Shown one piece after another: positions 7,974-28,480 of a stretch of 64,000 nt of DNA. Source of the DNA: a phage; assembly GCA_033648345.1 (NCBI GenBank), contig GCA_033648345.1_4121.1, one strand, 5' to 3'. Made by a program: the position numbers and the translations under genes. How positions within the stretch are numbered: the stretch's first letter is position 1; every line of letters starts with the position of its first letter. A model generated the notes under the pieces. The model was given only the letters and a program-made list of their open reading frames with translations. It did no database searches and had not been told where the DNA came from.

Positions 7974-8320
7974 TTCAACATATAGACAGGGGAAGCTCCG
8001 CAGGGAAAGCATTGGACAGGCTTTAACATATGTTATATATGTTAAAATTCAGCCTGCTCGACGTCTGAATTGTTAAAATTCAGCCTGGACAAATGCGATC
8101 ACTAGGATTCTCCCCAGGCTAAACCCCGTAATCATATGTAGTCATAAGTAATCATATATAAACATTTATGTAATCATTTATAATCATTGTAGTGATTAGT
8201 ATTGAGTACTAGAGTGTAATAGAGTGTAATAGAGTACAGGAATGTGCACGTTTAATCAAGAACGTAGCAGTACTGCCCCAAAAGTATTCAGTACTGAAGG
8301 TGTCGATATCCCACTAAGTA

Positions 8321-8346
8321 GGCAGAGGAAGTCTGCCGTACTTTTT
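8321..8346 (+). terminator. Terminator-like hairpin
   Basis: GGCAGA-GGAAG-TCTGCC followed by GTACTTTTT. Confidence 0.4.
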
Positions 8347-8681
8347 AGTTTCCAAGCTCCTTTTCCATTTTGCAAATTACATCAAATGTAATCAAAAGTA
8401 ATCACGCAATGATTAGTACTGAATTATTACTTTCACCTTAATTTCAATTACCCCTTTACCCTTCGGGGTAAAATTCCATTACCCCTTGAGGCTCCAGCAA
8501 AAAGTTGGTTAGTACTCCATCCTAAATCTCGATCCTAAAAATTTTGGAGTACCTATGAAATAAAAGTTGGATCTTCGAAAGTTGAAATTTACGTTGGGAC
8601 GTTTGTGATTTGTGGGATATAATGATGTTTGTAGTCGGGTAGTTCTCAAGAATATCAGTACTGAATGGTGAAAGAAAGTTA

Positions 8682-8709
8682 TTGACATTATGATTCAGTA
8701 CTGTATAAT
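8682..8709 (+). promoter_or_regulatory. Orphan sigma70-type promoter in non-coding region
   Basis: TTGACA-16-TATAAT followed by GTTTTACAT; no long ORF downstream. Confidence 0.45.
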
Positions 8710-9096
8710 GTTTTACATAGAGAGATGAGTTGCCGCAAACAATTCATTCACTCTACTTCCTGTCGTGAGACAGTACAGAAAGATAGTTCCTCCTATGGGT
8801 GGTACATCTTTTAGAACCTCTTTTTTCGTAATATGAACAGTACTGATATTAACAGAATGGTGTCAATACTGATTTTAATCTAAAGCATTATGCCACCAGC
8901 TTGTGCTGGTGGATTCCCTCTAACAGTATTCAGTACTACATGATAGTCTTCATCCTCCTAGGGTAACATAGTGAGGGCTATGATGGCAGTACTGAATACT
9001 CCTTTCACAAGATAGATCTATGGTATAGTACTGACGTATTTTGGGCGTAGTTACCCTGGATGGATTTTGGACGTAGATATGTCTAGCCCTCCAGAA

Positions 9097-9240
9097 GTCT
9101 GGAAGTAAATATGGCTATCCATCTAGACGGCTAAACGGCTAGATTTCTGGATGGCTGGGTGGCTGGGTGGCTGGGTGGCTAGACGTTTGGACGGCTAAAC
9201 GGCTAGATGGTTACACGTCTGGAAGTATAGACGGCTAAAT
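9097..9240. repeat. Iteron cluster with near-symmetric architecture
   Basis: (GGCTGGGT)x3.5 tandem at 9153-9180 flanked by two copies of TAGACGGCTAAACGGCTAGAT and outer GTCTGGAAGTA repeats. Confidence 0.65.
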
Positions 9241-9998
9241 CAAAATTTTATTTTGTTTTTTCCAATAGTTCCCCTACCGCGTGGGGATAGTTTCCCCGCA
9301 GTATCTGGAGTTAGATTTTTCTGAATCTGGAATCATTATCTTATAAACTGGGGGCAATGTCAACAGCCTGGACGGATATTTTTAAAAATTTTTTCAGTAC
9401 TGAATTTTGGGCGTAACTATGCACCCGGTGGGCTTGAGTCTTTCTCGACTTGATGGAACTATTATACAGTACTGGAAAAATAAAGCAATACCCTGGAAGC
9501 AAAAAAGTTTTAATTAATTTGCTTGCTATCCTGGGCCGGACTATGGTACTATATTTCAGTACTGAGAAAGTGCGTTTACCTGCTAGGGTGCGGGAGTGTA
9601 TCCTTTTTTTATATCTTGAATTTTGGGCGTAATTCCGCACCCTCTGGGGTTTCCGCTTTCTCGCGTCTATGTAGTAATTATACGCTTTTTCAGGATCAAG
9701 TCAATACCTAAAAACAAAATAATTGAAAATAATTTAACGCGTTTAAACGGCCAGTAAAGCCCTGGAATGATTGGAATGGTGCAAATGTATAGCTTAGGTG
9801 TATTAATGCGTTAGAATGCGTCTGAGGCCGTTTTATGGGGTATAGGGATGATTTGGTGGATTGATTCAGTACTGAATAATAGTACTACTATATAGAAAGA
9901 TAGTTCCCCTGGATGGTTGCAGTACTGAATGATAGTACTGAATAATAGTTCCCCTATATAGAAAGAAAACTATTTTAAAAAGTATTTGTAGAAAGTAC

Positions 9999-10026
9999 TT
10001 GCAAACTAAGTTTAACGGCGTATAAT
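9999..10026 (+). promoter_or_regulatory. Class-I early promoter
   Basis: AAAGTACTTGCAA-16-TATAAT-GTTTTACATC consensus. Confidence 0.6.
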
Positions 10027-10081
10027 GTTTTACATCGAGAGCGGGAACACTTCCCGCTACATATTACGAGAGATTAAAACG

Positions 10082-10444
10082 ATGGCGACTCAAATCACTA
10101 AAATTATTGCTAACCTGGTTAACTTCCGCGACGAGATGAAAGGTCTTCCGGCTGAAACGGTAAAAATTCACATCGCAGCTTATCGGGAACTTATTGCAAT
10201 GTTGCCGCTTAAGCGTGAACAATACGCCGCGACCGTGATGCTTGATGCGATGATCCATAAGATGATCGCCAGTGATTTGACGATGGCGTATCAGTATATG
10301 GGTGAATTGTTCGCGGTGTATAGTAAACCAGTACCAGGAATGGAAAGTACAGAAGTATTACACGGTTTAAATTTAAAACAAGATGCATGGGATAATATGC
10401 CTCGTTTCCTGGTATGGGCTGACAGTGGCAAGATTTACGAATAA
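10082..10444 (+). CDS. Hypothetical early protein (120 aa)
   Basis: Start moved from track ORF 10025 to Met after the 5'UTR hairpin GCGGGAACACTTCCCGC. Confidence 0.65.
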   Translation: MATQITKIIANLVNFRDEMKGLPAETVKIHIAAYRELIAMLPLKREQYAATVMLDAMIHKMIASDLTMAYQYMGELFAVYSKPVPGMESTEVLHGLNLKQDAWDNMPRFLVWADSGKIYE

Positions 10445-10458
10445 GTTTTAGAAAGTAC

Positions 10459-10486
10459 TTGCAAACTAAGTTTAAAAGCGTATAAT
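10459..10486 (+). promoter_or_regulatory. Class-I early promoter
   Basis: TTGCAA-16-TATAAT. Confidence 0.6.
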
Positions 10487-10536
10487 GTTTTACATCAGGT
10501 GGGGAATAGTTCCCCACTATATAAGAGGATTAAAAA

Positions 10537-10776
10537 ATGGCTAAATCAAAAATGTTCTTAGGTCACAAAAACAAAACTCATTGGAATGTAAGCCTTTGGA
10601 TTAATAACGATGAGTCATTGTACCGGTTGGCCCTGGACTTTATTGCCGCCAATACTAATCGCAATGATGCGGCCCGTCATATGATGTTATTTTTAGAACA
10701 GACTGGACAAGATAAAACACCGGACGGATTCAAATATAGCACTACTGCGATCCGTGCGGCGATGGTTGGAATGTAA
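10537..10776 (+). CDS. Hypothetical early protein; paralog of 12576..12815
   Basis: Shared GHKNKTxWNVSLWINN...TPDGFKYSTTAIRAAMVGM; SD AAGAGGA. Confidence 0.7.
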   Translation: MAKSKMFLGHKNKTHWNVSLWINNDESLYRLALDFIAANTNRNDAARHMMLFLEQTGQDKTPDGFKYSTTAIRAAMVGM

Positions 10777-10861
10777 TAGAATTTATTTAAAGTACTATCG
10801 CAAAAAATGATAGTACTTTATAATAGTGTTTTATTCATACACCAACGATAAGGGCAACAGC

Positions 10862-11128
10862 ATGAATATTAAGTATTTTGCGACGCGTGAACAAGCTCGG
10901 ATCGCCGCACGCCAGGACGGGGCAACGTTTAAAGATATGGGCGTACAATCGGAACGTGGTAAACGTTGGGCCATTATAAAGCGTAGTACCGCCAGATCAT
11001 TACAGTACTGGTTAGCGGCGTTAAAAAGTCCCGATAGTGTATCGCGTCGAGTGGTAGAAATAAAGCTCGACCGAAAGGGCAACCGCGTGACCGTGTACCG
11101 TACTAAAAAGATTGCAGTACTTGAATAA
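10862..11128 (+). CDS. Hypothetical early protein; paralog of 23885..24280
   Basis: Shared KYFATREQARIAARQDGATFKDMG and DRKGNRVTVY motifs; start moved to MNIKYF. Confidence 0.65.
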   Translation: MNIKYFATREQARIAARQDGATFKDMGVQSERGKRWAIIKRSTARSLQYWLAALKSPDSVSRRVVEIKLDRKGNRVTVYRTKKIAVLE

Positions 11129-11135
11129 AAAGTAC

Positions 11136-11163
11136 TTGCAAACTATGTTTAATGGCGTATAAT
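11136..11163 (+). promoter_or_regulatory. Class-I early promoter
   Basis: TTGCAA-16-TATAAT. Confidence 0.6.
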
Positions 11164-11215
11164 GTTTTACATCGAGAGCGGGAACACTTCCCGCCTATAA
11201 CCTGGAGTAATAAAA

Positions 11216-11446
11216 ATGACTAATATGTATATGACTGAAGTTAAAACCGTAAAAGATACTACCACGAATAAAACTACTTACTTACAGCGGATCTGCGGTG
11301 TATGGCAACGTATCAGCAAATCAAAGTACTTTAAATTAACATCATATGCAAACCGTTCGGATTCATTCAGTACTGAAATAAAAGGTAATAAAGTACACCA
11401 ATACGGCACTTATTATTATTATAGCCTGGACGCGATTGCAGTATAA
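11216..11446 (+). CDS. Hypothetical early protein (76 aa)
   Basis: ORF after promoter, hairpin and SD GGAGT. Confidence 0.6.
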   Translation: MTNMYMTEVKTVKDTTTNKTTYLQRICGVWQRISKSKYFKLTSYANRSDSFSTEIKGNKVHQYGTYYYYSLDAIAV

Positions 11447-11476
11447 GCAGTTTACAAATCTTTACAATTGCCGGTA

Positions 11477-11505
11477 TTGACTTATTTTGTCAGTACTGGC
11501 ATAAT
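11477..11505 (+). promoter_or_regulatory. Promoter of convergent pair (candidate small-RNA promoter)
   Basis: TTGACT-17-CATAAT; no ORF downstream, followed by the conserved CCCA-GGGTGC leader motif. Confidence 0.5.
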
Positions 11506-11620
11506 GTATTCATTGGCAGATAAGCCGTAGCCCATAGGGTGCGGGAGTGTATCTATAGAAAAAGTAGTTTATTACAGTTACAATTGTGCACCCGGTGGGT
11601 TAGCTGTTGTCATGGGGTAT

Positions 11621-11649
11621 ATTATGCCAGTACTTGATAATGCTGTCAA
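11621..11649 (-). promoter_or_regulatory. Convergent minus-strand promoter
   Basis: Reverse complement reads TTGACA-17-CATAAT and faces the promoter at 11477. Confidence 0.5.
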
Positions 11650-11695
11650 TACTTTTTTTTACTATTCAGTACTGAAAACTATTTTTAAAAAGTAC

Positions 11696-11723
11696 TTGCA
11701 AACTATGTTTAAAGGCGTATAAT
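11696..11723 (+). promoter_or_regulatory. Class-I early promoter (P1 of tandem pair)
   Basis: TTGCAA-16-TATAAT followed by structured leader ACATCAGGACGGGGAACG... Confidence 0.55.
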
Positions 11724-11813
11724 GTTTTACATCAGGACGGGGAACGAAATAAGTAACTCCCCGTTAAGTAGCCCAGGAGTAAGGCACACGAAAAACTCCC
11801 CTGATAAAATAGT

Positions 11814-11841
11814 TTGACAAATGTTTTTAAAAGCGTATAAT
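11814..11841 (+). promoter_or_regulatory. Promoter P2 of tandem pair
   Basis: TTGACA-16-TATAAT. Confidence 0.55.
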
Positions 11842-11873
11842 ACTTACATCAACTACTGAATGAGGGTTACAAA

Positions 11874-12485
11874 ATGAAAACTATCACTACTACTACTTTC
11901 GTTATGGATTTTTCTGAATTGAACGCAGAACAAAAAACGTCAGCTATCGAACTGGTTCGGGAACGTGAAAAAAACTCAAACGACAATTATTTTTCTGAAA
12001 GTGAAATTGAATACTATAAAGAAACAGTACTACCGGAATATGGCATTAATGACGCTGAAATACAATTCAGTGGTTTTTGGTCCCAGGGTGACGGTGCATC
12101 AATCAGTACTGACCACGTTGACGGTGTGAAGTTTTTACGCAAGGTAAGAGCATTAACTAAGTATCGCTCAATCCGTCACTTGCTGAATGAAGATGATTTG
12201 GCGATGAGTGTAAAGCGTTCTCATTCTTTGTACTTGCATGAGAATACTGTAAGCGGGTACATTGAATCGGCTTACACTGATTTAACCGCAAAACAAGAAA
12301 CGTTAGTTAATGAGCTTGAGGAACTACTCACTGAAACTATTCGTGAATTATCCCGCAAGTTGTACCGTGATTTAGAGAATGCATATGAGGATCAATTCAC
12401 TACTGAAAACATCGTATCACTGATTGAGGGTAACGAATATCAATTCAATGTTATTGATGGCGTAGTAGAATCAATCGAATATTAA
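11874..12485 (+). CDS. Hypothetical acidic early protein (203 aa)
   Basis: ORF with upstream tandem promoters; SD GAGGG. Confidence 0.7.
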   Translation: MKTITTTTFVMDFSELNAEQKTSAIELVREREKNSNDNYFSESEIEYYKETVLPEYGINDAEIQFSGFWSQGDGASISTDHVDGVKFLRKVRALTKYRSIRHLLNEDDLAMSVKRSHSLYLHENTVSGYIESAYTDLTAKQETLVNELEELLTETIRELSRKLYRDLENAYEDQFTTENIVSLIEGNEYQFNVIDGVVESIEY

Positions 12486-12497
12486 TTCAAAAAGTAC

Positions 12498-12525
12498 TTG
12501 CAAACTAAGTTTAAAAGCGTATAAT
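12498..12525 (+). promoter_or_regulatory. Class-I early promoter
   Basis: TTGCAA-16-TATAAT. Confidence 0.6.
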
Positions 12526-12575
12526 ACTTTATATCGAGGCGGGGAGTGGTTCCCCGCTCAAACGAGGATTTAAAA

Positions 12576-12815
12576 ATGGCTAGTACTAAAACTTATAACG
12601 GACACAAAAACAAAACTCAATGGAATGTAAGCCTTTGGATTAATAACGGTGAGTCATTGTATCGGCTTGCACAAAGTTGTATCGCACAAAGTAGAACTAA
12701 AGATATTGCAGCGGAATGCATGTACCGCAGATTAAAAGCCAACGGTACTACTACAACGCCGGACGGCTTTAAGTATAGCACTACTGCGATCCGTGCTGCA
12801 ATGGTTGGAATGTAA
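12576..12815 (+). CDS. Hypothetical early protein; paralog of 10537..10776
   Basis: Start moved to MASTKTYNGHK after hairpin GGCGGGGAGTGGTTCCCCGC. Confidence 0.7.
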   Translation: MASTKTYNGHKNKTQWNVSLWINNGESLYRLAQSCIAQSRTKDIAAECMYRRLKANGTTTTPDGFKYSTTAIRAAMVGM

Positions 12816-12873
12816 TATTCAGTACTGTAACAATGGCGGGGAATGGTTCCCGCCTTTATTGAGGGTTTATCTA

Positions 12874-13134
12874 ATGAGTAAAGTAATTAACTATACAGTA
12901 CTAAGCAAGTCATTGTCTATCAGTGAATGCACCGATGGTTTTTGGCTTTATGATGAAACGCGTGGAATGAATTTAGCTATGCGTGTAAAAACTGCTGAGG
13001 CGGCGTATCTTGAGGCACTGGAATACTACCAGGAACGTTTAACGGAAGTAGAAGAAGATTATAAAAGCCTCAAAGCGAAAGTAGATCATTTCGTCGGTCA
13101 ATTCATCGAGGAAGACGACGATAAACAATACTGA
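12874..13134 (+). CDS. Hypothetical early protein (86 aa)
   Basis: Start moved to MSKVINY after hairpin GGCGGGGAATGGTTCCCGCC and SD GAGGG. Confidence 0.6.
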   Translation: MSKVINYTVLSKSLSISECTDGFWLYDETRGMNLAMRVKTAEAAYLEALEYYQERLTEVEEDYKSLKAKVDHFVGQFIEEDDDKQY

Positions 13135-13222
13135 AAAAAAGTACTTGCAATTAGTTTTCAGTACTGTATAATAGTTTACATCAAGTGGAGAAATGGTTCT
13201 CCCTGGTAATGAGGAAAATAAA

Positions 13223-13444
13223 ATGGCTAATATCACTACTCTTTCCCAACTGGAAGCACTGGTTAAATCTATGCGGGAACATGCCGACAAAATCGGCGTA
13301 CAAGATCCAGCCGTTTGCTTCTGCGACGAATTGAATGATGATACCCTTGTAATAGCAGAAGTCCAGGACGTTTCTAACTATTCCTCGCGTTACACTGGCG
13401 GCGTAGCAAATAAAGGCGACTTCTGTTTATACCTTACAAAATAA
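13223..13444 (+). CDS. Hypothetical early protein (73 aa)
   Basis: Start moved to MANITT after hairpin and SD. Confidence 0.6.
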   Translation: MANITTLSQLEALVKSMREHADKIGVQDPAVCFCDELNDDTLVIAEVQDVSNYSSRYTGGVANKGDFCLYLTK

Positions 13445-13449
13445 CAACG

Positions 13450-13480
13450 CGGGGAGATAATAACTCCCCGTTACTTTTTC
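13450..13480 (+). terminator. Rho-independent terminator
   Basis: CGGGGAGATAATAACTCCCCG followed by TTACTTTTT. Confidence 0.6.
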
Positions 13481-13550
13481 AGTACTGAATCATTTAATAG
13501 ACGGATCTATGCACCCGGTGGGTTAGTGACTGTTTCGTCTTGATGTAGTA

Positions 13551-13579
13551 ATTATGCCAGTACTGGATGCAGTTGTCAA
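13551..13579 (-). promoter_or_regulatory. Minus-strand promoter with conserved leader (candidate small RNA)
   Basis: Reverse complement TTGACA-17-CATAAT followed by ACATCAAGACG...CCCACCGGGTGCAT; no ORF. Confidence 0.45.
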
Positions 13580-13612
13580 CAACTATTTTTCAAATACTTT
13601 TTATTAAAATAC

Positions 13613-13640
13613 TTGCAATTAGTTTTTAAACGCGTATAAT
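13613..13640 (+). promoter_or_regulatory. Class-I early promoter
   Basis: TTGCAA-16-TATAAT. Confidence 0.55.
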
Positions 13641-13687
13641 GTTTTGCATAGGGGGAGCGGTTCCCCTGGTAACTAAGGAATAATAAA

Positions 13688-13924
13688 ATGCTTGAACAAA
13701 TCAAATCAACGTCTGCGAATGTAACGGGAACGGTAGCACACTTTACTAGTGATGAATCGCGGGGCGTTCCCTATTGTGCTGTACATGTAAACACTGATGG
13801 CAACTACTGGTTTACGGTTTACGGATCATATTCATTTGGACGGCCTGGGCATCAAAAAATTCTGGATAAAGTACAACCAACGGGTAAAAATATCACTGCC
13901 GAAATGTTTTATAAAAAATCATAA
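13688..13924 (+). CDS. Hypothetical early protein (78 aa)
   Basis: Hairpin GGGGGAGCGGTTCCCC then SD AAGGAA. Confidence 0.65.
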   Translation: MLEQIKSTSANVTGTVAHFTSDESRGVPYCAVHVNTDGNYWFTVYGSYSFGRPGHQKILDKVQPTGKNITAEMFYKKS

Positions 13925-13929
13925 AGTAC

Positions 13930-13957
13930 TTGATAATAGTTTTTAGTACTGTATAAT
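13930..13957 (+). promoter_or_regulatory. Early promoter
   Basis: TTGATA-16-TATAAT. Confidence 0.5.
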
Positions 13958-14008
13958 ATTTTACATCGCAAGGGGGAGCGGTTCCCCCTAGTAACTAAGG
14001 ATAATCAA

Positions 14009-14308
14009 ATGAAAATTGCAATCATCGCCCTGGCTTTATCTGTTTCCTCTTTCGCTGTTAATGCGTCATTAGATGTAAGTAGTGAAAAATTCATTCAGTG
14101 CACTGTTGCAATGACCGATGAAAGAACTGGCGAGATTGTATTAAAGGATTTAGAGATCCAGCCGGAAGCATTTAAAAACGGCCCGTTCCATGAAGAAGAC
14201 GAAAACGGTAGCACAACAATTTATTATGATGCCAGTACTAAACGCGGTTCGGTCACTGTAATGGATACTGAGAAAGTAACTCATACTGGCGTTATTAATT
14301 GCCGTTGA
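14009..14308 (+). CDS. Small secreted/periplasmic protein
   Basis: N-terminal signal-peptide-like MKIAIIALALSVSSFAVNA. Confidence 0.65.
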   Translation: MKIAIIALALSVSSFAVNASLDVSSEKFIQCTVAMTDERTGEIVLKDLEIQPEAFKNGPFHEEDENGSTTIYYDASTKRGSVTVMDTEKVTHTGVINCR

Positions 14309-14329
14309 TAGATACTACGGGGTAACATC

Positions 14330-14560
14330 ATGACTAAGCGAATTGTTTTACTTAACGAAAGCAGTACTACACAACTACTTAACGCCGTGCATTATGATAT
14401 TGAAACGAGCGTTAATCTTATCAGTACTGTAGTACTGTTGGACACTGGAAAGGTCGCCAATGATAAAGCGATTGCAGGTATATTAACGGATCTTGAGCCT
14501 GGTAGCAGTGCACCAATAACGTTAAATGGTAAAGTGTTTAATATTTTACTCACTGATTAA
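14330..14560 (+). CDS. Hypothetical protein (76 aa)
   Basis: ORF closely following upstream gene. Confidence 0.55.
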   Translation: MTKRIVLLNESSTTQLLNAVHYDIETSVNLISTVVLLDTGKVANDKAIAGILTDLEPGSSAPITLNGKVFNILLTD

Positions 14561-14566
14561 GTACAT

Positions 14567-14594
14567 AGCCCACCTGGTGGGCTTTTTTGTTTTT
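14567..14594 (+). terminator. Rho-independent terminator
   Basis: AGCCCACC-TGGTGGGCT followed by TTTTTTGTTTTTG. Confidence 0.75.
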
Positions 14595-14642
14595 GTAGTA
14601 TCGTAGTACTGAGATACTTTGAAAATAGTTTTAAAAAAGTAG

Positions 14643-14670
14643 TTGACATTACCGCAGAAAAGCGTAGAAT
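14643..14670 (+). promoter_or_regulatory. Early promoter
   Basis: TTGACA-16-TAGAAT followed by conserved leader ACATCAAGACGGGGAGC. Confidence 0.5.
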
Positions 14671-14793
14671 GTATTACATCAAGACGGGGAGCACTAAGTA
14701 GACCGCCAGTAAGTCGAACGAAAAACTGGACACGTCGAGAAAACTTTGATACACTAATAAACGTAAACTAAACTTTAATTGAGGATTTATAAA

Positions 14794-15276
14794 ATGGCTA
14801 ATGTAAAATCATTCATCAAAGCACTGGTAGCAAATGAAACTAACGTCGCGGCAGAGATCCTGGCTGAACTGGATAACGATACCATGAAAGCGGTACGCAA
14901 TAATTTTAACATCGCGTACAGTACTGCGAAAGAACTACAAGCAAATAAAGCAGCAGAGATCGAGGCAGCAAAGGCGGCCCGTGAAGCAGAACTACAAGCA
15001 ACAATTGAAAGTATTCAGGCGGCAGTAGTTGGATTGGATCTGGAAGTAGTTACAGAGATGGCACAAAAAGCCCTGGCGAAAAAGTACGGGGAAGACAAGC
15101 CAGAAGTAAAAGCCAAAAAATGGATTCAAGAACGTGTAGCGGTAGTACTTGATAATGGGGAAGAATATCTGATTCCGGTGCGTGGTAACTGCATTGCTGT
15201 AGTACTGGATGCGATTAACTCCAGCGGTATGACTCGCGAGGAATGGATCGAAGCTCATCGCAAAGTGGAAGCATAA
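14794..15276 (+). CDS. Hypothetical protein with Ala/Glu-rich helical segment (160 aa)
   Basis: Start moved to MANVKSF after SD GAGGA. Confidence 0.65.
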   Translation: MANVKSFIKALVANETNVAAEILAELDNDTMKAVRNNFNIAYSTAKELQANKAAEIEAAKAAREAELQATIESIQAAVVGLDLEVVTEMAQKALAKKYGEDKPEVKAKKWIQERVAVVLDNGEEYLIPVRGNCIAVVLDAINSSGMTREEWIEAHRKVEA

Positions 15277-15297
15277 CAATTAAAGTACTGAATCACT

Positions 15298-15325
15298 AGC
15301 CCACTGTATAAGTGGGCTTTTTTGT
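15298..15325 (+). terminator. Rho-independent terminator
   Basis: AGCCCAC-TGTATAA-GTGGGCT followed by TTTTTTG. Confidence 0.75.
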
Positions 15326-15477
15326 GTTTATCGTTTACCAGGCCACCAGCACCGCCTAGAATCGATTCTAACGCATTAAACTGATTATCTGATGCATCGC
15401 CCTAGCTGGTGGAGTTAAGGCCGTTAGAATGCGATTTAGAGCGTTTAAAGTATTTTGCAAAAAGTAATAAAAAGTAC

Positions 15478-15505
15478 TTGCACGATTCAGAGATTAGCGT
15501 ATAAT
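15478..15505 (+). promoter_or_regulatory. Class-I early promoter
   Basis: TTGCAC-16-TATAAT. Confidence 0.5.
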
Positions 15506-15550
15506 GTTTTACATCAAGGCGAAACACCTTAACTAACTGAGGATATAAAG

Positions 15551-15703
15551 ATGAATACTTATGAACTGGATTGTTTCACTATGCAAGTAATGTTAGTATG
15601 CAGTAAAAAAGAATGGTCATCAAAGGAATTTAAAGCAGTTATTGCGTGTGCAAAACACGGCAAGACTATCAATGAAACGGCATCAATCATTGATAAACTT
15701 TAA
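15551..15703 (+). CDS. Small hypothetical protein (50 aa, absent from ORF track)
   Basis: Manual translation MNTYELDCFTMQ... with SD GAGGA. Confidence 0.45.
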   Translation: MNTYELDCFTMQVMLVCSKKEWSSKEFKAVIACAKHGKTINETASIIDKL

Positions 15704-15711
15704 AAAATAGT

Positions 15712-15740
15712 TTGACAATAGTTTTAAGTACTGACATAAT
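15712..15740 (+). promoter_or_regulatory. Class-II early promoter
   Basis: TTGACA-17-CATAAT with AGTACTG before the -10. Confidence 0.6.
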
Positions 15741-15773
15741 ACATACATCAACTACTGAATAGGAATCAAAACA

Positions 15774-16001
15774 ATGGCTATCGTAATCACTCGCGTATCT
15801 GGTACTACTGGCAATTCTTCTACTGTTGCTGTAATTACTAATAAGAAAGGTGCGGAATTACATTTTGCAATGAATACCTGGGCGGTGAATGAGTTCGGTC
15901 AGTGGGCTAGTGTAGAATACATTGAAACCTATCAAGTGCCAACCATTAGCTTAACGGATCTCGGCGTAGATCGTATCTTATGCCTGGATGAATTAAATTA
16001 A
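15774..16001 (+). CDS. Hypothetical early protein (75 aa)
   Basis: ORF after promoter; SD AGGAA. Confidence 0.65.
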   Translation: MAIVITRVSGTTGNSSTVAVITNKKGAELHFAMNTWAVNEFGQWASVEYIETYQVPTISLTDLGVDRILCLDELN

Positions 16002-16008
16002 AAAAGTA

Positions 16009-16037
16009 CTTGCAAAGTAAATCAAATAAAGTATAAT
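16009..16037 (+). promoter_or_regulatory. Class-I early promoter
   Basis: TTGCAA-17-TATAAT; hairpin GGGGAGAAATGGTTCTCCCC at 16050-16069. Confidence 0.6.
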
Positions 16038-16086
16038 ACATTACATCAAGGGGAGAAATGGTTCTCCCCACTACAAGGAAACTAAA

Positions 16087-16230
16087 ATGAAAACTTGTCA
16101 ATGTGGTCAGAAATCTATTACGGGTTTAAAGCGGGGCGTTGCTCTTTGCCAGTACCATTATAATTTACAAGTATGGGGTAAAGAATGGGCCGACCAGGTG
16201 GAAGCAGCAAAGAAAGCAAAAAGTAAGTAA
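16087..16230 (+). CDS. Small Cys-containing (zinc-ribbon-like) protein (47 aa, absent from ORF track)
   Basis: Manual translation MKTCQCGQKS...CQYH with SD AAGGAA. Confidence 0.5.
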   Translation: MKTCQCGQKSITGLKRGVALCQYHYNLQVWGKEWADQVEAAKKAKSK

Positions 16231-16311
16231 AAATATTATCACAGTACTATTGACATAGTTTGATAGTACTGGCATAATAGATTTTATCAAGACAACTAAG
16301 AGGAAACAATA
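16221..16311 (+). repeat. Duplicated ~91-bp promoter cassette (copy 1)
   Basis: Near-identical to 16515..16605; contains TTGACA-17-CATAAT and SD AAGAGGAAA. Confidence 0.8.
16250..16278 (+). promoter_or_regulatory. Class-II early promoter
   Basis: TTGACA-17-CATAAT. Confidence 0.6.
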
Positions 16312-16524
16312 ATGGCTATCATCACAAAAATCAAAGTAAACAAATCACTGGTTAAGCTGGAAGAAGTGAAAGAAGGTTATAAAGTATCGTGGTGCGGCAT
16401 GTATCGGATTTTTACAGATGTTGACGATGCAATCAATTACTACACTGACACGGTAAAAAACTTTGTTCGTGCTGATGTGGTTATGGCAGTGGCAACACAC
16501 AAAGCATCGAAAGAAAGTAAGTAA
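16312..16524 (+). CDS. Hypothetical early protein (70 aa)
   Basis: ORF downstream of duplicated promoter cassette. Confidence 0.65.
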   Translation: MAIITKIKVNKSLVKLEEVKEGYKVSWCGMYRIFTDVDDAINYYTDTVKNFVRADVVMAVATHKASKESK

Positions 16525-16605
16525 AAATATTATCACAGTACTATTGACATAGTTTGATAGTACTGGCATAATAGATTTTATCAAGACAACTAAGAGGAAA
16601 TTAAA
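16515..16605 (+). repeat. Duplicated ~91-bp promoter cassette (copy 2)
   Basis: Near-identical to 16221..16311. Confidence 0.8.
16544..16572 (+). promoter_or_regulatory. Class-II early promoter
   Basis: TTGACA-17-CATAAT. Confidence 0.6.
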
Positions 16606-16950
16606 ATGGCTAACATCAACACTATCGCAGCACAAAATATCAACCTGTCTTCTGTTGAAGTTGTACATATTGCCGCTCGGCGTTGGTTCCAGGCTTCATA
16701 TGGTAACACTTATTTCTCTTTAAGTGTAGACGTAGAAATTGATGGTAATTTTATTGAAGTAGTAAACGTGCCGTTCCAATATGGATACGGGGATCATTTT
16801 GACACTGTAGCAATGGAAGAATTTAGCAAGGTTATTAATATGGAAGGTAAAGAGTTTTTACGCGGTTCTTATCTTTCACGTTTTTGCCGTGATAATAATA
16901 TCACTGTTTACAGTTCGGTAACTGATGTTAAACGCAAAAAAGATCTTTAA
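16606..16950 (+). CDS. Hypothetical early protein; paralog of 23466..23789
   Basis: Shared GNTY...F.YGYG...DVKRKKD motifs. Confidence 0.7.
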   Translation: MANINTIAAQNINLSSVEVVHIAARRWFQASYGNTYFSLSVDVEIDGNFIEVVNVPFQYGYGDHFDTVAMEEFSKVINMEGKEFLRGSYLSRFCRDNNITVYSSVTDVKRKKDL

Positions 16951-17030
16951 TTAGCTTTACTTTATGCAGATACTTTGATATAGTGTCTGCATAGGGGAAA
17001 GAAATTAAATTAACTTAAGAGGATAGTATA

Positions 17031-17300
17031 ATGAAAAATATCAGTACTTTAATTGATGCAGGTACACATGTTCGGCGGTCTATGGTTGCAACCAGTACTA
17101 CAAAACAAGTAGCAAGCGGTTATCTTGTATTTGTGCACGATGGAAAACTCCTGGAACGTTCAATCAATTTTGATGTTAAAAACAATTGCCGTTTTATTAT
17201 TTTTAAGCGTGAACAATATAAAATTGATTTACCAGCGAAGCCCATTAGCGGGGCGTATAACGTCTATTCATTGTTTGAGCGTCAACCATACACCTATTAA
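17031..17300 (+). CDS. Hypothetical protein (89 aa)
   Basis: SD AAGAGGA; upstream inverted repeat TGCAGA...TCTGCA. Confidence 0.6.
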   Translation: MKNISTLIDAGTHVRRSMVATSTTKQVASGYLVFVHDGKLLERSINFDVKNNCRFIIFKREQYKIDLPAKPISGAYNVYSLFERQPYTY

Positions 17301-17351
17301 TCAAAACATCGTTAGCGGTCGATTTAGGCCGCTTATATTGGGGATTATACC

Positions 17352-17624
17352 ATGAACGTTAATCAAGTACTGAATGAGATCGAAAGCATCATTAAACCAA
17401 TGAAACGCATTGATGCTATGTTAACACCGGAAGAATGCCGCCTTTATGAGCGTTACAGCGTCGAACAAGTCCAGGCAATGGCTATGGCTACCCCAGCCGT
17501 TAAACAGCCTGAGAACGCGTTACAGGACGTTACAGGGGATTATATCATCAATCCAGTACTAGGGAAGATGGCGGCAATCACCGAAGATCAACAAGACTAC
17601 TTAAGCCAGTACTTAAAAGGTTAA
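17352..17624 (+). CDS. Hypothetical protein (90 aa)
   Basis: ORF with SD GGGGA. Confidence 0.6.
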   Translation: MNVNQVLNEIESIIKPMKRIDAMLTPEECRLYERYSVEQVQAMAMATPAVKQPENALQDVTGDYIINPVLGKMAAITEDQQDYLSQYLKG

Positions 17625-17629
17625 TTAAT

Positions 17630-17839
17630 ATGCTTACTGTACAGGATAAGATCGACATCTTAAAGGTTAATATGTATGTGATTGATGCCGTACCTGGTAA
17701 AGTATTTGCATACGATGACACTACTGTAAGCGATTTCTACTATAGCCAGGCCGTGGGGGATCTTTCTGTACAGTCGGTTATTGAAAACGTAGTTAATGCA
17801 GCGTATGAGCATTTACTTTCAAATAGTACTTGCAATTAG
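17630..17839 (+). CDS. Hypothetical protein (69 aa)
   Basis: ORF whose 3' end overlaps the next promoter. Confidence 0.55.
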   Translation: MLTVQDKIDILKVNMYVIDAVPGKVFAYDDTTVSDFYYSQAVGDLSVQSVIENVVNAAYEHLLSNSTCN

Positions 17840-17857
17840 TTTTTAAACGCGTATAAT
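17830..17857 (+). promoter_or_regulatory. Class-I early promoter
   Basis: TTGCAA-16-TATAAT; hairpin GGGGAGAAATGATTCTCCCC follows. Confidence 0.6.
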
Positions 17858-17908
17858 GTTTTACATGAAGGGGAGAAATGATTCTCCCCACTAATTAAGG
17901 AATATGAA

Positions 17909-18055: not shown

Positions 18056-18058
18056 TAC

Positions 18059-18086
18059 TTGCAATTAGTTTTTAAACGCGTATAAT
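18059..18086 (+). promoter_or_regulatory. Class-I early promoter
   Basis: TTGCAA-16-TATAAT; hairpin at 18099-18118. Confidence 0.6.
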
Positions 18087-18510: not shown

Positions 18511-18520
18511 ATGAAAAAAG

Positions 18521-18550
18521 TGGTTGACTTCGGTCAGCCATTTTGCTATT
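18521..18550 (+). terminator. Rho-independent terminator
   Basis: TGGTTGAC-TTCG-GTCAGCCA followed by TTTTGCTATTAT. Confidence 0.7.
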
Positions 18551-18645
18551 ATATATTCATTGAGAGATAGCTCACTAGCCCACCGGGTGCATAAGTGTAT
18601 CTATTATATAAGTATTGAGTACTGAAAACTATTTTTAAAAAGTAC

Positions 18646-19066: not shown

Positions 19067-19079
19067 TATAAAAAATAGT

Positions 19080-22518: not shown

Positions 22519-22555
22519 AAAAGGGATTGACTCCGGTCAGTCCCTTTGCTATTAT
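22519..22555 (+). terminator. Terminator hairpin with embedded promoter-like TTGACT
   Basis: AAGGGATTGAC-TCCG-GTCAGTCCCTT followed by TGCTATTATAT. Confidence 0.7.
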
Positions 22556-22655
22556 ATACGCATAGAAACAAATTAGCCCACCGGGTGCATAAATGTATCT
22601 ATTGTTTGCTGGTGGCTAGTACTATCAAGTACTGAAAACTATTTTTAAAAAGTAC

Positions 22656-22683: not shown

Positions 22684-22771
22684 GTTTTACATCAGGACGG
22701 GGAACGAAACAAGTAACCCCGTTAAGTAGTCCAGGAGTAAGACATACGAAAAACTCCCCTGATAAAATAGT

Positions 22772-25796: not shown

Positions 25797-25833
25797 AAAA
25801 GGGATTGACTCCGGTCAGTCCCTTTGCTATTAT
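25797..25833 (+). terminator. Terminator hairpin with embedded promoter-like TTGACT
   Basis: Same element as 22519. Confidence 0.7.
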
Positions 25834-25925
25834 ATATTCATTGAGAGATAACTCACTGACCCATAGGGTGCGGAAGTGTATCTATTATATAAGCATTCAG
25901 TACTGAAAACTATTTTAAAAAAGTA

Positions 25926-28247: not shown

Positions 28248-28284
28248 AAAAGGGATTGACTCCGGTCAGTCCCTTTGCTATTAT
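28248..28284 (+). terminator. Terminator hairpin with embedded promoter-like TTGACT
   Basis: Same element as 22519. Confidence 0.7.
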
Positions 28285-28480
28285 ATACGCATAGACAAAA
28301 ACTAGCCCACAGGGTGCATAGGTGTATCTAAAATATATAGTTAATAACGGTGAGTAACTATCTGCTGGTGGAGTGAAAACTATTAATAAAAAAAACTATT
28401 GACAAAGTATATCAGTACTGCAATAATGTATCTCGTAGGGCGGCAATGGTGCGACGGCCCACAAAGTTAGGAGATTCAAA

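What the first reader, a model, noticed from the sequence alone, without database searches (positions are those of the whole stretch)
11477..11649. Convergent promoter pair and a recurrent promoter-plus-leader module with no ORF: candidate small-RNA family
At 11477-11649 two TTGACA-17-CATAAT promoters face each other across ~115 bp with no ORF. Each is followed by a related motif (CCCA[CT][AC]GGGTGC then [AC]AATGTA[TA]CTAT), which recurs downstream of promoters in both orientations: + near 18575, 20213, 22575, 25855, 28300 and - near 9420, 9640, 13500. Related structured leaders (ACATCAGGACGGGGAACGAAA.. with two hairpins) precede the tandem-promoter genes at 11874, 14794 and 22833. This looks like a family of short non-coding transcripts or a mobile promoter-leader cassette.
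Basis: partly seen in the sequence, partly recalled or inferred. Interest (0 to 1): 0.65.

Follow-up and report, generated by a model that had tools for sequence, protein, structure and literature searches.

The report
Jumbo-phage early non-coding RNA family
A short untranslated unit, made of a strong host-type promoter followed by two small RNA hairpins (one almost invariant), is repeated ten times in the terminal repeat of this giant E. coli phage and in all its enterobacterial relatives; it is an undescribed family of very early phage RNA elements, and its job is still unknown.

Summary
The window is an Asteriusvirus (PBECO4/121Q-type) jumbo coliphage. Window 8317 to about 29,700 is its ~21-kb direct terminal repeat (DTR), packed with sigma70 promoters and tiny early genes.

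CCCAYMGGGTGC occurs 10 times against 0.13 expected. A covariance model finds exactly these 10 copies plus one decayed copy, all in the DTR, and 119 distinct copies across RaK2-, CBB/GAP32-, 7t3- and Yen9-like phages and metagenomic jumbo-phage contigs. It finds none in the bacterial genomes scanned, E. coli, PA5oct or Rfam.

Each copy has a near-consensus sigma70 promoter, a 5' hairpin with compensatory changes, an invariant hairpin R-CCC-(3-4 nt)-GGG-U, then GC, a purine run and UNYRUCYAU. There is no conserved ORF.

- Copies that run with the genes often have their -35 inside the preceding terminator hairpin, and they read into the next promoter.
- Copies that run against the genes meet a terminator about 50 nt on, giving roughly 105-nt RNAs.
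- Convergent pairs such as 11477-11649 recur with a fixed 68-nt spacing.

So this is a conserved, strand-specific, non-coding RNA element. Function is unproven: I favour a promoter-proximal RNA signal acting on RNA polymerase, and a trans-acting small RNA is nearly as likely. The "related leaders" are a separate pseudoknot family.

The parts
11477..11505 (+). Sigma70-type promoter of the rightward copy: TTGACT, 17 nt, TGG-CATAAT (extended -10).
11512..11566 (+). Rightward module RNA. The start is inferred at the A of CAT, 7 nt after the -10. It contains the 5' hairpin GGC-AGAUAA-GCC (11515-11526), the invariant hairpin G-CCC-AUA-GGG-U (11530-11540), GC (11541-11542), GGGAG, and UGUAUCUAU (11548-11556).
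   Evidence: Model match 11506-11566, 53.6 bits; alignments
11621..11649 (-). Sigma70-type promoter of the leftward copy: TTGACA, 17 nt, TGG-CATAAT.
11564..11614 (-). Leftward module RNA. Its core CCCACCGGGTGC lies at 11599-11588. It is fully complementary to the rightward RNA across the centre of the pair.
   Evidence: Model match 11564-11625, 44.3 bits. Each transcript of the pair folds into a long hairpin: -39.5 and -28.7 kcal/mol, z about -4
9397..9488 (-). Copy about 1.1 kb from the physical left end, pointing towards the end. Promoter 9488-9461, core 9432-9421, 3' subtype UUACGCCCAAAAUUCAG.
   Evidence: left end mapped
9613..9704 (-). Second end-proximal leftward copy. Promoter 9704-9677, core 9648-9637, with the tetraloop form A-CCC-CAGA-GGG-U.
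9523..9615 (+). Decayed rightward copy (CTGCTAGGGTGCGGGAGTGTATCC followed by T7), convergent with the 9648 copy. Here the GGGUG/UAUCC helix plus the U-run reads as a terminator.
   Evidence: 17.9 bits; terminator scan; sequence
13450..13579 (-). Solo copy running against the gene array: promoter 13579-13551, core 13522-13511, then the bidirectional terminator CGGGGAG-UUAUUAU-CUCCCCG at 13470-13450. This gives a unit of about 105 nt that looks like a small-RNA gene.
18520..18614 (+). Copy running with the genes. Its -35 (18524-18529) lies in the stem of the terminator hairpin GGUUGAC-UUCG-GUCAGCC, and the T-tract runs into TGC-TATTAT (-10, 18547-18552). Core 18579-18590. The next gene promoter follows about 67 nt after the core start.
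   Evidence: (ARNold terminator annotated at the orthologous site in phage G17)
20184..20276 (+). Copy running with the genes, with a plain promoter (TTGACA, 17 nt, TGG-CATAAT). Core 20241-20252.
22521..22612 (+). Copy running with the genes, with a terminator-embedded promoter (GGAUUGAC-UCCG-GUCAGUCC, then CTTTGC-TATTAT). Core 22577-22588. A Chi site follows at 22608.
25800..25895 (+). Copy running with the genes, with a terminator-embedded promoter. Core 25860-25871. This is the best model score in the window (65.8 bits).
28250..28341 (+). Copy running with the genes, with a terminator-embedded promoter. Core 28306-28317. It is the last copy, about 1.4 kb before the right edge of the terminal repeat.
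11729..11812 (+). Separate non-coding leader family, copy 1. A closing stem CAGG/CCUG and a hairpin ACGGGGA/UCCCCGU flank a pseudoknot core UAAGUA-GCC-CA-GGAG-UAA-GGC-ACACGAAAAA-CUCC. It lies between promoter 11696-11723 and promoter 11814-11841.
   Evidence: (-22.2 kcal/mol, z -2.8)
14668..14745 (+). Separate leader family, copy 2: closing stem GACG/CGUC, S1 GAC/GUC, S2 CCAG/CUGG. It is directly the 5' UTR of the gene starting at 14794.
22689..22770 (+). Separate leader family, copy 3: S1 GUC/GAC, S2 GGAG/CUCC. It lies upstream of a second promoter and the gene at 22833.
   Evidence: (D3, 89% to copy 1)

Best explanation
Each copy is a self-contained immediate-early transcription unit read by host sigma70 RNA polymerase. 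The RNA starts about 7 nt after the -10 box and is not translated.

Its parts, in order:
- a 5'-terminal hairpin with a 3-5 bp stem that differs between copies and a purine/A-rich loop such as GAGAAA, GCGAAA, AGAACAA or AGAUAA;
- a 3-4 nt linker;
- an almost invariant hairpin R-CCC-(3-4 nt)-GGG-U;
- GC, a purine run, then U-N-Y-R-U-C-Y-A-U.

Proposed mechanism (inferred): the invariant hairpin and its 3' flank are a recognition signal in the nascent RNA that acts on the polymerase making it. It would work like the nut and put leaders of lambdoid phages. It probably involves a hairpin-stabilised pause about 10 nt downstream of the hairpin, and it would change how that polymerase behaves at the terminators that bound each early operon.

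Consequences of orientation:
- Copies running with the genes restart transcription right at the preceding terminator and read into the next gene promoter.
- Copies running against the genes meet a terminator about 50 nt later and by default give an RNA of about 105 nt.
- The convergent pair at 11477-11649 gives two complementary RNAs, each able to fold into a long hairpin.

Shown: the repeat family, its promoter linkage, strand specificity, hairpin conservation, absence of coding potential, restriction to the terminal repeat, and conservation across the clade. Inferred: transcription itself, the start sites, the pause, any protein partner, and the effect on termination.

I put about 0.8 on "functional element at the RNA (single-strand) level" and about 0.35-0.4 on the cis-acting polymerase-signal mechanism specifically.
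For: Family and significance. 10 motif hits against 0.13 expected. The model finds 10 strong copies plus 1 decayed copy and nothing else in 64 kb. It finds 101 and then 35 further matches, 119 distinct in all, in RaK2, CBB, GAP32, 7t3, Hallingskeid, Yen9-03/04 and metagenomic jumbo-phage contigs.

Promoter linkage. 83 of 93 distinct copies have at least 10 of 12 consensus matches; 72 have 17-nt spacing and 60 have the extended -10 TG. Only 2.4% of random positions in the same loci reach 10 of 12. The C-A-T start motif is conserved.

RNA-level structure, 5' hairpin. All 4 pairs show changes on both sides. The covariation score is 0.396 against 0.151 in shuffles (0 of 500 reach it) and at most 0.074 when the partners are slid. 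These are also the top mutual-information pairs.

RNA-level structure, invariant hairpin. The closing pair is A-U or G-U in 119 of 119 copies. The loop varies in both sequence and length (16 loop types of 3 or 4 nt), while the stem is constant. Two independent copies changed C-G to U-A on both sides. G-U pairs and a variable loop length fit a single-stranded hairpin on the sense strand, not a duplex protein site.

Pause geometry. With the hairpin ending at column 47, G is at -10 (92/93), T at -3 (85/93), G at -2 (51/93), a pyrimidine at -1 (93/93) and a purine at +1 (93/93). From established knowledge, this matches the G-10 / Y-1 / G+1 elemental pause and the 10-12 nt hairpin-to-3'-end distance of his-type pauses.

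Context. Copies sit between a terminator and the next gene promoter. In 17 of 31 solo copies running with the genes, a strict finder places the -35 inside that terminator's stem, and more are visible by eye. Linkage to orthologous downstream genes is kept across genera. All copies lie in the ~21-kb terminal repeat that holds the early genes (PMC13070987, PMC11895373, PMC5259590).
Against: - There are no transcript data for any phage of this clade.
- Solo copies are not thermodynamically remarkable: z = +0.3, -0.7, -1.2 and -1.6.
- The invariant stem offers almost no covariation (2 of 119 copies).
- GGGUG can instead pair with the downstream YRUCY. This helix is 94.5% paired against 29-71% when slid and competes with the CCC/GGG hairpin, so the fold is not settled.
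- Eight solo copies and ten convergent pairs point away from any gene. That is awkward for a leader signal and fits a stand-alone RNA better.
- No boxA-like sequence was found, and no antiterminator or other partner protein was identified.
- The pause match was noticed after the fact and +1 is G in only a third of copies.
Confidence: 0.38

Rival explanations
1. Stand-alone trans-acting small RNAs. Each module is a small-RNA gene. About 10 copies per repeat (20 per packaged genome) are fired from very strong promoters in the first minutes. The RNAs would flood the cell and bind (titrate) a conserved host or phage protein through the invariant hairpin, or pair with a target through the variable 3' part.
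For: - Position is independent of orientation, always between a terminator and the next promoter.
- Seven of the 8 solo copies running against the genes (the strict finder missed the eighth) have a GC hairpin starting 48-52 nt after the core start. That gives the usual small-RNA layout of promoter, about 105 nt, then a terminator hairpin with a T-rich tail (for 13440-13548).
- Convergent pairs have no downstream gene.
- The 3' part falls into discrete subtypes: UGUAUCUAU, UCCGUCUAU and UUACGCCCAAAA.
- A related jumbo phage, PA5oct, does make abundant non-coding RNAs from its terminal repeat (2-5% of phage reads; PMC7318152).
Against: - 31 of about 58 units run with the genes and have no terminator within 158 nt; they read into the next promoter.
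- No complementary target was found in the window.
- No related sequence exists in 5,426 E. coli genomes.
- A single partner would have to be conserved across hosts from Escherichia to Yersinia and Pectobacterium, or be phage-encoded.
- The PA5oct RNAs are unrelated.
Confidence: 0.3
2. DNA-level element. CCC-N3-GGG-TGC would be a duplex binding site for an operator, roadblock or insulator protein placed just downstream of early promoters. Alternatively, the repeats would serve as homology patches for modular shuffling, like the PeSL cassettes of T4-type phages.
For: - CCC-NNN-GGG is a dyad, and the stem sequence is invariant, as protein-contacted bases are.
- The copies are spaced every 2-3 kb and confined to the terminal repeat.
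- Blocks bounded by modules are permuted between genera.
- PeSLs are likewise composite sigma70 promoter plus terminator motifs in regions rich in small orphan genes (PMC2839356, PMC4122927).
Against: - The spacer between the half-sites is 3 or 4 nt, which a duplex-binding dimer rarely tolerates.
- The closing pair alternates A-U and G-U, which is meaningful on one strand only.
- Orientation is locked to the promoter in 118 of 119 copies.
- The 5' hairpin covaries.
- Indels against vB_Ec-M-J fall at ordinary gene promoters, not at modules, and module-gene linkage is stable.
Confidence: 0.12
3. No function beyond promoter and terminator. The convergent pair would be a bidirectional terminator or insulator made of two inward promoters. 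The conserved downstream box would be an initial-transcribed or promoter-clearance sequence, or a remnant of an ancestral leader.
For: - The pair transcripts fold into hairpins with 12-17 bp GC stems (z about -4).
- The gene upstream of the pair (11216-11446) has no terminator of its own.
- Leftward promoters behind terminators could knock off read-through polymerases.
- The ordinary early leaders also start with a 5' hairpin (families D1-D2).
Against: - A 12-mer kept invariant at +27 to +38 across genera whose flanking proteins are only 30-70% identical is far more constraint than promoter clearance needs.
- The 22 or more ordinary early promoters in the same region lack it.
- The pair hairpins are not followed by U-tracts.
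Confidence: 0.08
4. Replication priming. Transcripts from these promoters would form persistent RNA-DNA hybrids through the G-rich GGGUGCGGAG segment, next to the AT-rich TATCTATTATATAAG. They would prime leading-strand synthesis, as at the T4 origins ori(uvsY) and ori(34), and convergent pairs would give bidirectional starts.
For: A promoter plus a G-rich segment plus an AT-rich unwinding stretch, with multiple copies in a phage that has a T4-like replisome (PMC5259590). GC skew changes sign near the left end of the repeat.
Against: - The hairpin conservation and 5' hairpin covariation are unexplained by this model.
- The skew switch coincides with the switch in gene orientation.
- Ten origins in 21 kb is implausible.
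- Nothing was tested directly.
Confidence: 0.05
5. A tiny coding gene or leader peptide. GGGUG would act as the ribosome-binding site for an NUG codon 6 nt downstream (Met-Tyr-Leu...).
For: Seven of ten window copies have ATG, GTG or TTG at the same column, followed by TAT CTA or a stop codon.
Against: The codon is absent in three window copies and in many copies elsewhere (ATC, TTA, GTA and others). The "peptides" are 0-21 residues long with nothing conserved beyond Met-Tyr-Leu. Column statistics show purine or pyrimidine constraints rather than codon periodicity.
Confidence: 0.02

Closest known systems
PeSL (promoter-early stem-loop) cassettes of T4-type phages (Arbiol et al. 2010, PMC2839356; Comeau et al. 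2014, PMC4122927)
   Same: Repeated composite motifs that join a near-consensus sigma70 early promoter, an AT-rich upstream stretch and a GC stem-loop terminator. They are concentrated in regions full of small orphan early genes. The ordinary gene promoters of this window (repeat families D1-D6) and the terminator/promoter overlap of the modules fit this picture.
   Different: PeSLs sit directly in front of an ORF and carry no conserved transcribed non-coding element. Here there is a ~60-nt conserved untranslated RNA part with an invariant hairpin. The -35 lies inside the terminator stem rather than downstream of it. The modules are not at the indel junctions between close relatives.
Lambdoid nut sites (boxA + boxB, bound by N and Nus factors) and HK022 put RNAs
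   Same: Short conserved RNA signals with small hairpins, placed just downstream of early promoters, present in operons of both orientations, with no coding role. They act in cis on the transcribing polymerase in genomes whose early operons are bounded by terminators. put also has two hairpins and an associated pause. (This comparison is from my own knowledge.)
   Different: There is no boxA consensus and no sequence similarity. The invariant hairpin has a 4-bp stem and a 3-4 nt loop, unlike the 5-bp, GNRA-like pentaloop boxB. There are 10 copies per repeat instead of 2 per genome. Many copies face no gene. No N-like protein was identified, and nothing was tested functionally.
ops element and RfaH recruitment
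   Same: A 12-nt invariant element in leaders that contains a tiny hairpin and lies next to a pause. It acts only in one orientation relative to the promoter. (From my own knowledge.)
   Different: The sequence is unrelated (ops is GGCGGTAGNNTG). ops works as non-template DNA in the transcription bubble. The element here also has a conserved 5' RNA hairpin and a 15-nt 3' flank.
Non-coding RNAs ncRNA001 and ncRNA002 in the terminal repeat of Pseudomonas jumbo phage PA5oct (PMC7318152)
   Same: A related jumbo phage makes abundant untranslated RNAs from its long terminal repeat, as shown by RNA-seq.
   Different: They are 236 and 451 nt long and single-copy, and no promoters were known for them. 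The model built here finds nothing in the 39-kb PA5oct repeat (best 15.6 bits, E = 0.67).

Membership tests
Any Rfam family (release 15, 4227 models) | Covariance-model score at or above the family's gathering threshold | tested here: not met
   0 matches at gathering score over the whole window. At E up to 10 over 9200-14000 there were only four chance-level hits, none on a module.
tRNA / tmRNA | Cloverleaf detected by ARAGORN | tested here: not met
   0 genes in 64 kb.
PeSL cassette | Near-consensus sigma70 early promoter with an AT-rich upstream region | tested here: met
   83 of 93 copies have at least 10 of 12 consensus matches, against 2.4% of control positions. A-rich tracts lie upstream of the -35.
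PeSL cassette | Adjacent GC-rich stem-loop acting as terminator for upstream transcription | tested here: inconclusive
   Present in 4 of 10 window copies and in 17 of 31 solo copies running with the genes by a strict finder. However, the stem contains the -35 itself, and the copies running against the genes and the paired copies lack it.
PeSL cassette | The motif directly precedes the start codon of a (usually orphan) ORF | tested here: not met
   No conserved ORF or ribosome-binding site follows. The next element is another promoter, a terminator or the partner copy.
PeSL cassette | Lies at insertion, deletion or replacement junctions between closely related phages | tested here: not met
   All six breakpoints against vB_Ec-M-J (window ~10.45, 15.5-15.8, 16.6-16.9, 19.2-19.6, 21.5-21.8 and 25.9-26.0 kb) fall away from the modules; the two I checked (~10.45 and ~25.95 kb) sit on ordinary gene promoters. 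This compares with one relative only.
Lambdoid nut site | boxA sequence (CGCUCUUUA-like) upstream of the hairpin | tested here: not met
   No such conserved block in the 93-copy column profile; the linker is only Y-U-R-R.
Lambdoid nut site | boxB: 5-bp stem with a GNRA-like pentaloop | tested here: inconclusive
   The 5' hairpin has covarying 3-5 bp stems and purine-rich 4-8 nt loops such as GAGAAA, GCGAAA and AGAACAA. This is a resemblance only. The invariant hairpin has a 3-4 nt loop.
Lambdoid nut site / HK022 put | Confers terminator read-through on the polymerase that transcribes it (with N, or alone) | not testable with these tools
   Needs in vitro or in vivo transcription assays.
ops / RfaH | GGCGGTAGNNTG consensus in the leader | tested here: not met
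   The core is CCCANNGGGTGC.
Terminator-ended (Hfq-type) small-RNA gene | Own promoter, 50-250 nt of non-coding RNA, intrinsic terminator with a U-tail | tested here: inconclusive
   Met for the solo copies running against the genes: a hairpin starts 48-52 nt after the core start in 7 of 8 by the strict finder. Not met for 31 solo copies running with the genes or for the pairs.
Hairpin-stabilised transcriptional pause | Hairpin 10-12 nt upstream of the pause, with the G-10 / Y-1 / G+1 context | tested here: inconclusive
   The sequence fits: G 92/93 at -10, pyrimidine 93/93 at -1, purine 93/93 at +1 (G in 31). Pausing itself was not measured, and the match was found after the fact.
Protein-coding mini-gene | Conserved start codon, reading frame and peptide | tested here: not met
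   The start codon is missing in 3 of 10 window copies and many others. Lengths are 0-21 codons and no peptide is conserved.

The most novel reading that the evidence does not exclude
Rak2-like jumbo phages of enterobacteria carry about 20 copies per packaged genome of a dedicated immediate-early RNA signal. A phage or host protein would read this signal to reprogramme RNA polymerase at the many terminators of the terminal repeat.

Once the factor accumulates, copies running with the genes would switch on read-through into delayed-early genes. Copies running against the genes and convergent copies would switch from harmless ~100-nt RNAs to antisense or double-stranded RNA that shuts the immediate-early genes off.

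This would be a new, multi-copy RNA-based timing circuit, built on promoters fused into terminator hairpins.
Probability: 0.2. Interest if true: 0.8.

Novelty: new variant of a known kind. Interest (0 to 1): 0.55.

Why it matters
Almost nothing is known about how Rak2/PBECO4-type jumbo phages run their first minutes of infection. These phages are being developed for therapy against E. coli, Klebsiella and Salmonella.

This element is the most conserved non-coding sequence in their early region. It is kept nearly base-for-base across genera whose neighbouring proteins have diverged to 30-70% identity.

It gives a concrete handle for experiments, whichever reading turns out to be right:
- an RNA bait for finding its binding partner;
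- a set of predicted start sites and RNA ends;
- a testable link between promoters, terminators and antisense transcription.

The promoter-inside-terminator design is also a compact part that synthetic biologists could reuse.

Tried and rejected
- tRNA/tmRNA scan: none found.
- Rfam at gathering and at permissive thresholds: nothing.
- Mini-ORF or leader peptide: rejected because neither the start codon nor the peptide is conserved.
- Host mimicry: no similarity in 5,426 E. coli genomes. No exact match of the commonest 21-specified-base form in 185,579 bacterial and archaeal species genomes.
- Homology to the PA5oct terminal-repeat RNAs: none.
- Long-range pairing or a pseudoknot within the module: mutual information and a stacked-pair scan find only the 5' hairpin, the CCC/GGG hairpin and the competing GGGUG/YRUCY helix. 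RNAalifold alone recovers only the small invariant hairpin.
- Antisense targets in the window: no complement of the core, and only chance-level matches to UGUAUCUAU.
- Mobility or PeSL-type shuffling at the modules: not seen against vB_Ec-M-J, and synteny is kept.
- CRISPR-repeat mimicry, CsrA sites and ops: considered from memory and set aside. The motif is identical in phages of hosts with different CRISPR types. GGA is present in only about 40% of copies. The sequence is unlike ops.
- Fur boxes in the window: not enriched.
- A first 16-base pattern scan of IMG/VR also returned short metagenomic contigs with no model hit, which I take as chance matches.
- Literature: no paper in the searchable library contains the motif or describes the element.
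Full report
**What the window is.**
The region around the finding is 97-98% identical to Asteriusvirus jumbo coliphages such as PBECO4, G17, Sharanji and vB_Ec-M-J. In vB_Ec-M-J the matching DNA lies in the annotated 21,525-bp direct terminal repeat. Aligning the two genomes puts that phage's position 1, its physical left end, at window 8317 and the right edge of the repeat near window 29,700. Repeats of about 20-22 kb have been shown by PhageTerm, restriction mapping or read depth in fEgEco12, Sharanji and CBB (PMC13070987, PMC11895373, PMC5259590).

Inside the repeat the + strand carries about 55 very small genes. Most have their own sigma70-type promoter, a GC hairpin at the start of the 5' UTR and a ribosome-binding site (repeat families D1-D6; ORFs). 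There are no tRNAs and no Rfam matches.

**Checking the observation.**
The two promoters at 11477-11505 (+) and 11649-11621 (-) are as described, each with a 17-nt spacer and an extended -10. They form a 35-nt inverted repeat (I6). Only mechanical ORFs of 20-36 aa lie between them.

Each hit is 25-32 nt downstream of a -10 box on the same strand. A covariance model built from 51 copies was scored without filters over the whole window. It returns those 10 copies (44-66 bits), one decayed copy at 9551-9615 (17.9 bits) that is convergent with the 9648 copy, and nothing else above 12.1 bits. All copies lie in the terminal repeat. The other ~42 kb of the window has none.

**Distribution.**
A 121-nt module finds 68 phage records. 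Besides Escherichia phages these include Klebsiella (RaK2, K64-1, Muenster), Salmonella (7t3, PHA46), Pectobacterium CBB, Cronobacter GAP32, Erwinia Hallingskeid and Yersinia fHe-Yen9-03. Each record has several matching places.

The model finds 101 matches in the fetched loci and 35 more in metagenomic jumbo-phage contigs, 119 distinct sequences in all. It finds nothing in the 39-kb terminal repeat of the more distant Pseudomonas phage PA5oct. There is no similarity in 5,426 E. coli genomes, and the commonest form has no exact match in 185,579 bacterial and archaeal species genomes. No paper in the searchable library contains the motif, and the genome papers on these phages do not mention it. 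The element is therefore specific to the enterobacterial Rak2-like clade and appears to be undescribed.

**Anatomy.**
The promoter is nearly universal.
- 83 of 93 distinct copies match at least 10 of 12 consensus positions.
- 72 have a 17-nt spacer, and 60 have the TG of an extended -10.
- Only 2.4% of random positions in the same promoter-rich loci reach 10 of 12.

A conserved C-A-T about 7 nt after the -10 marks the likely start. The transcribed part then has:
1. A hairpin within the first ~20 nt. Its 3-5 bp stem differs from copy to copy (GGC/GCC, AGCA/UGCU, GCC/GGC, GGAG/CUCC, CCAC/GUGG, GACG/CGUC), and its loop is purine/A-rich (GAGAAA, GCGAAA, AGAACAA, AGAUAA).
2. A Y-U-R-R linker.
3. 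A second hairpin, R-CCC-loop-GGG-U.
4. G-C, five mostly purine positions, then U-N-Y-R-U-C-Y-A-U.

**Evidence that the hairpins matter.**
In the first hairpin all four modelled pairs show changes on both sides. The covariation score is 0.396, against 0.151 in shuffles (0 of 500 reach it) and at most 0.074 when the partners are slid. These four pairs are also among the highest mutual-information pairs in the alignment. One caveat: that alignment was fitted to the structure.

The second hairpin is almost invariant, so covariation is scarce, but three observations fit a single-stranded hairpin on the sense strand.
- The closing pair is A-U or G-U in all 119 copies.
- The loop varies in sequence and in length (3 or 4 nt, 16 types) while the stem stays fixed.
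- Two independent copies (CBB, L005 near 15740; Yen9-03, L008 near 4632) changed C-G to U-A on both sides.

A duplex site for a dimeric protein would not be expected to tolerate a 3-versus-4 nt spacer, and G-U has no meaning on the other strand.

**What remains unsettled about the fold.**
GGGUG can alternatively pair with the downstream Y-R-U-C-Y. This helix is paired in 94.5% of cells, against 29-71% when slid, and the partner columns vary only by transitions. It competes with the CCC/GGG hairpin and is the predicted fold in the 9432 copy.

The same columns also fit a hairpin-stabilised pause. With the hairpin ending at -11, G is at -10 (92/93), T at -3 (85/93), a pyrimidine at -1 (93/93) and a purine at +1 (93/93). 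The pause consensus and geometry are from my own knowledge of the his-type and NET-seq-defined pauses, and I noticed the match after the fact. Solo modules are not unusually stable (z between +0.3 and -1.6), so the case rests on conservation, not on energy.

**Not coding.**
An NUG codon 6 nt after GGGUG exists in 7 of 10 window copies. It is missing in the others and in many relatives, and the possible peptides (0-21 residues) share nothing beyond Met-Tyr-Leu.

**Three genomic arrangements.**
- Solo copies running with the gene array: 31 in the six oriented loci. The module follows the end of an operon. In 17 of these by a strict finder, and more by eye, the -35 TTGAC lies in the stem of that operon's terminator hairpin and the T-tract runs into TGnTATTAT. 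The same sites are annotated as ARNold terminators in G17 and GAP32. Only one of the 31 has a terminator-like hairpin within 158 nt, a weak one at +95; in about half, the pattern search found an ordinary gene promoter 49-87 nt after the core start.
- Solo copies running against the array: 8, plus the end-proximal 9432 copy. These have a plain promoter placed back-to-back with the next gene's promoter. In 7 of the 8 (the strict finder missed the eighth) a GC hairpin, in most cases the bidirectional terminator of the upstream gene, starts 48-52 nt after the core start. The result looks like a small-RNA gene of about 105 nt, for example 13579 to 13450.
- Convergent pairs: 10. The distance from the start of one core to the far end of the other is exactly 68 nt in the window (11531/11599), vB_Ec-M-J, three CBB pairs and one Yen9-03 pair. 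It is 79-90 nt in the others. Each transcript of the focal pair can fold into a long hairpin through the two inverted cores (-39.5 and -28.7 kcal/mol, z about -4), and the two RNAs are complementary.

**Mobility.**
Gene order in the repeat is shuffled between genera, yet module-gene linkages persist. A module precedes the rv5-gp180-like gene (window 11874) in RaK2, CBB, 7t3 and Yen9-03. One precedes the 18725 homologue in RaK2 and Yen9-03. One precedes the 28840 homologue in RaK2, 7t3 and Hallingskeid. One follows the 22087 homologue in RaK2, CBB and Yen9-03. The six indels separating this phage from vB_Ec-M-J all fall away from the modules, and the two I checked sit on ordinary gene promoters. 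The ordinary promoters thus behave like PeSL cassettes (PMC2839356, PMC4122927), while the modules look stably inherited. This comparison used one close relative only.

**Interpretation.**
I am fairly confident (about 0.8) that this is a functional element acting as single-stranded nucleic acid on the sense strand, that is, as RNA made from its own very strong early promoter.

What it does is not shown. I favour a promoter-proximal signal in the nascent RNA that acts on the transcribing polymerase, for these reasons:
- its fixed place at +27 to +38;
- the pause-like context;
- its position exactly where transcription restarts after each terminator;
- its stable linkage to downstream genes;
- the precedent of nut and put leaders.

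A trans-acting, protein-titrating or target-pairing small RNA is nearly as likely, and it explains the copies running against the genes and the convergent copies better. Duplex-DNA site, pure promoter/terminator insulator, R-loop primer and mini-gene readings are less likely for the reasons given under the rivals.

**The other "structured leaders".**
The leaders at 11729-11812, 14668-14745 and 22689-22770 are real but unrelated to the module. They share UAAGUA-[G-N-C]-NN-[GGAG or CCAG]-UAA-[G-N'-C]-NNACGAAAAN-[CUCC or CUGG].
- N:N' is C:G, U:A or A:U.
- The second stem switches GGAG/CUCC to CCAG/CUGG.
- An outer closing stem also changes: CAGG/CCUG, GACG/CGUC, GCGGC/GUCGC.

This describes an H-type pseudoknot inside a closing helix. 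Copies were found only in Asteriusvirus and one IMG/VR contig, so the comparative support rests on about three lineages. It has no Rfam match.

Noticed in passing
window 8893-28371 (Chi sites); also L004-L008: The E. coli Chi sequence GCTGGTGG occurs 10 times on the + strand, all inside the terminal repeat, against 0.2 expected. CCACCAGC occurs twice. A back-to-back pair CCACCAGC-ttgt-GCTGGTGG lies at 8893-8912, about 580 bp from the physical left end. RaK2, CBB, 7t3, Hallingskeid and Yen9-03 show the same 50-100-fold excess and + strand bias, while Pseudomonas phage PA5oct has none. Chi keeps its + orientation even when it sits in the spacer of a leftward module promoter. This looks like protection of the genome ends from RecBCD.
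   Followed up: partly
whole window, e.g. 11367, 11666, 13479, 25897: AGTACT occurs 286 times in 64 kb against about 21 expected. It lies in promoter spacers (CAGTACTGGCATAAT, AGTACTGTATAAT), just before -35 boxes (AAAGTACTTGCA) and as TCAGTACTGA palindromes at gene and module ends. It may be a site for an abundant DNA-binding or DNA-modifying protein. Not explained.
   Followed up: partly
window 11729-11812, 14668-14745, 22689-22770: A second non-coding leader family, with a conserved pseudoknot core (UAAGUA-GNC-NN-GGAG/CCAG-UAA-GN'C-NNACGAAAAN-CUCC/CUGG) inside a covarying closing stem. It also occurs in 121Q (L016, L017) and one IMG/VR contig (L030). No Rfam match. It is a candidate cis-regulatory RNA in its own right.
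   Followed up: partly
window 18520-18552, 22521-22555, 25800-25833, 28250-28284: Intrinsic-terminator hairpins whose stem contains the -35 hexamer TTGAC and whose T-tract runs straight into TGC-TATTAT (extended -10). This is a terminator and a promoter in the same ~35 bp. The design recurs in RaK2, CBB, 7t3, Hallingskeid and Yen9-03.
   Followed up: partly
window 8317-10024: The first ~1.7 kb after the physical left end has no plausible gene. It carries a tandem GGCTGGGT x3 (about 9147-9175), repeats of GGACGGCTAAACGGCTAGAT, a perfect-consensus rightward promoter at 8682-8709 and three module copies. It may hold packaging, ejection or end-protection signals.
   Followed up: no
L004 7156, 7674, 8508; L006 7713, 12680; L008 344: Fur-box-like palindromes, matching 16-17 of 19 positions of GATAATGATAATCATTATC in RaK2 and 7t3 and 14 of 19 in Yen9-03. 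Those at L004 8508, L006 12680 and L008 344 lie between the two cores of wider-spaced (79-90 nt) convergent module pairs. They are not enriched in this window.
   Followed up: partly
window 20253-20330 and L007 about 12070-12110: Repeated TGATCAA(N)AAATGATCAA motifs (each with a GATC site) follow the 20241 module and its Hallingskeid counterpart, upstream of the DksA-like zinc-finger gene region.
   Followed up: no
window 30500-36200 and 43900-54700: Outside the terminal repeat there are arrays of diverged paralogous small genes, seen as repeat families D5, D7-D13 and D19 with 200-450 bp spacing.
   Followed up: no
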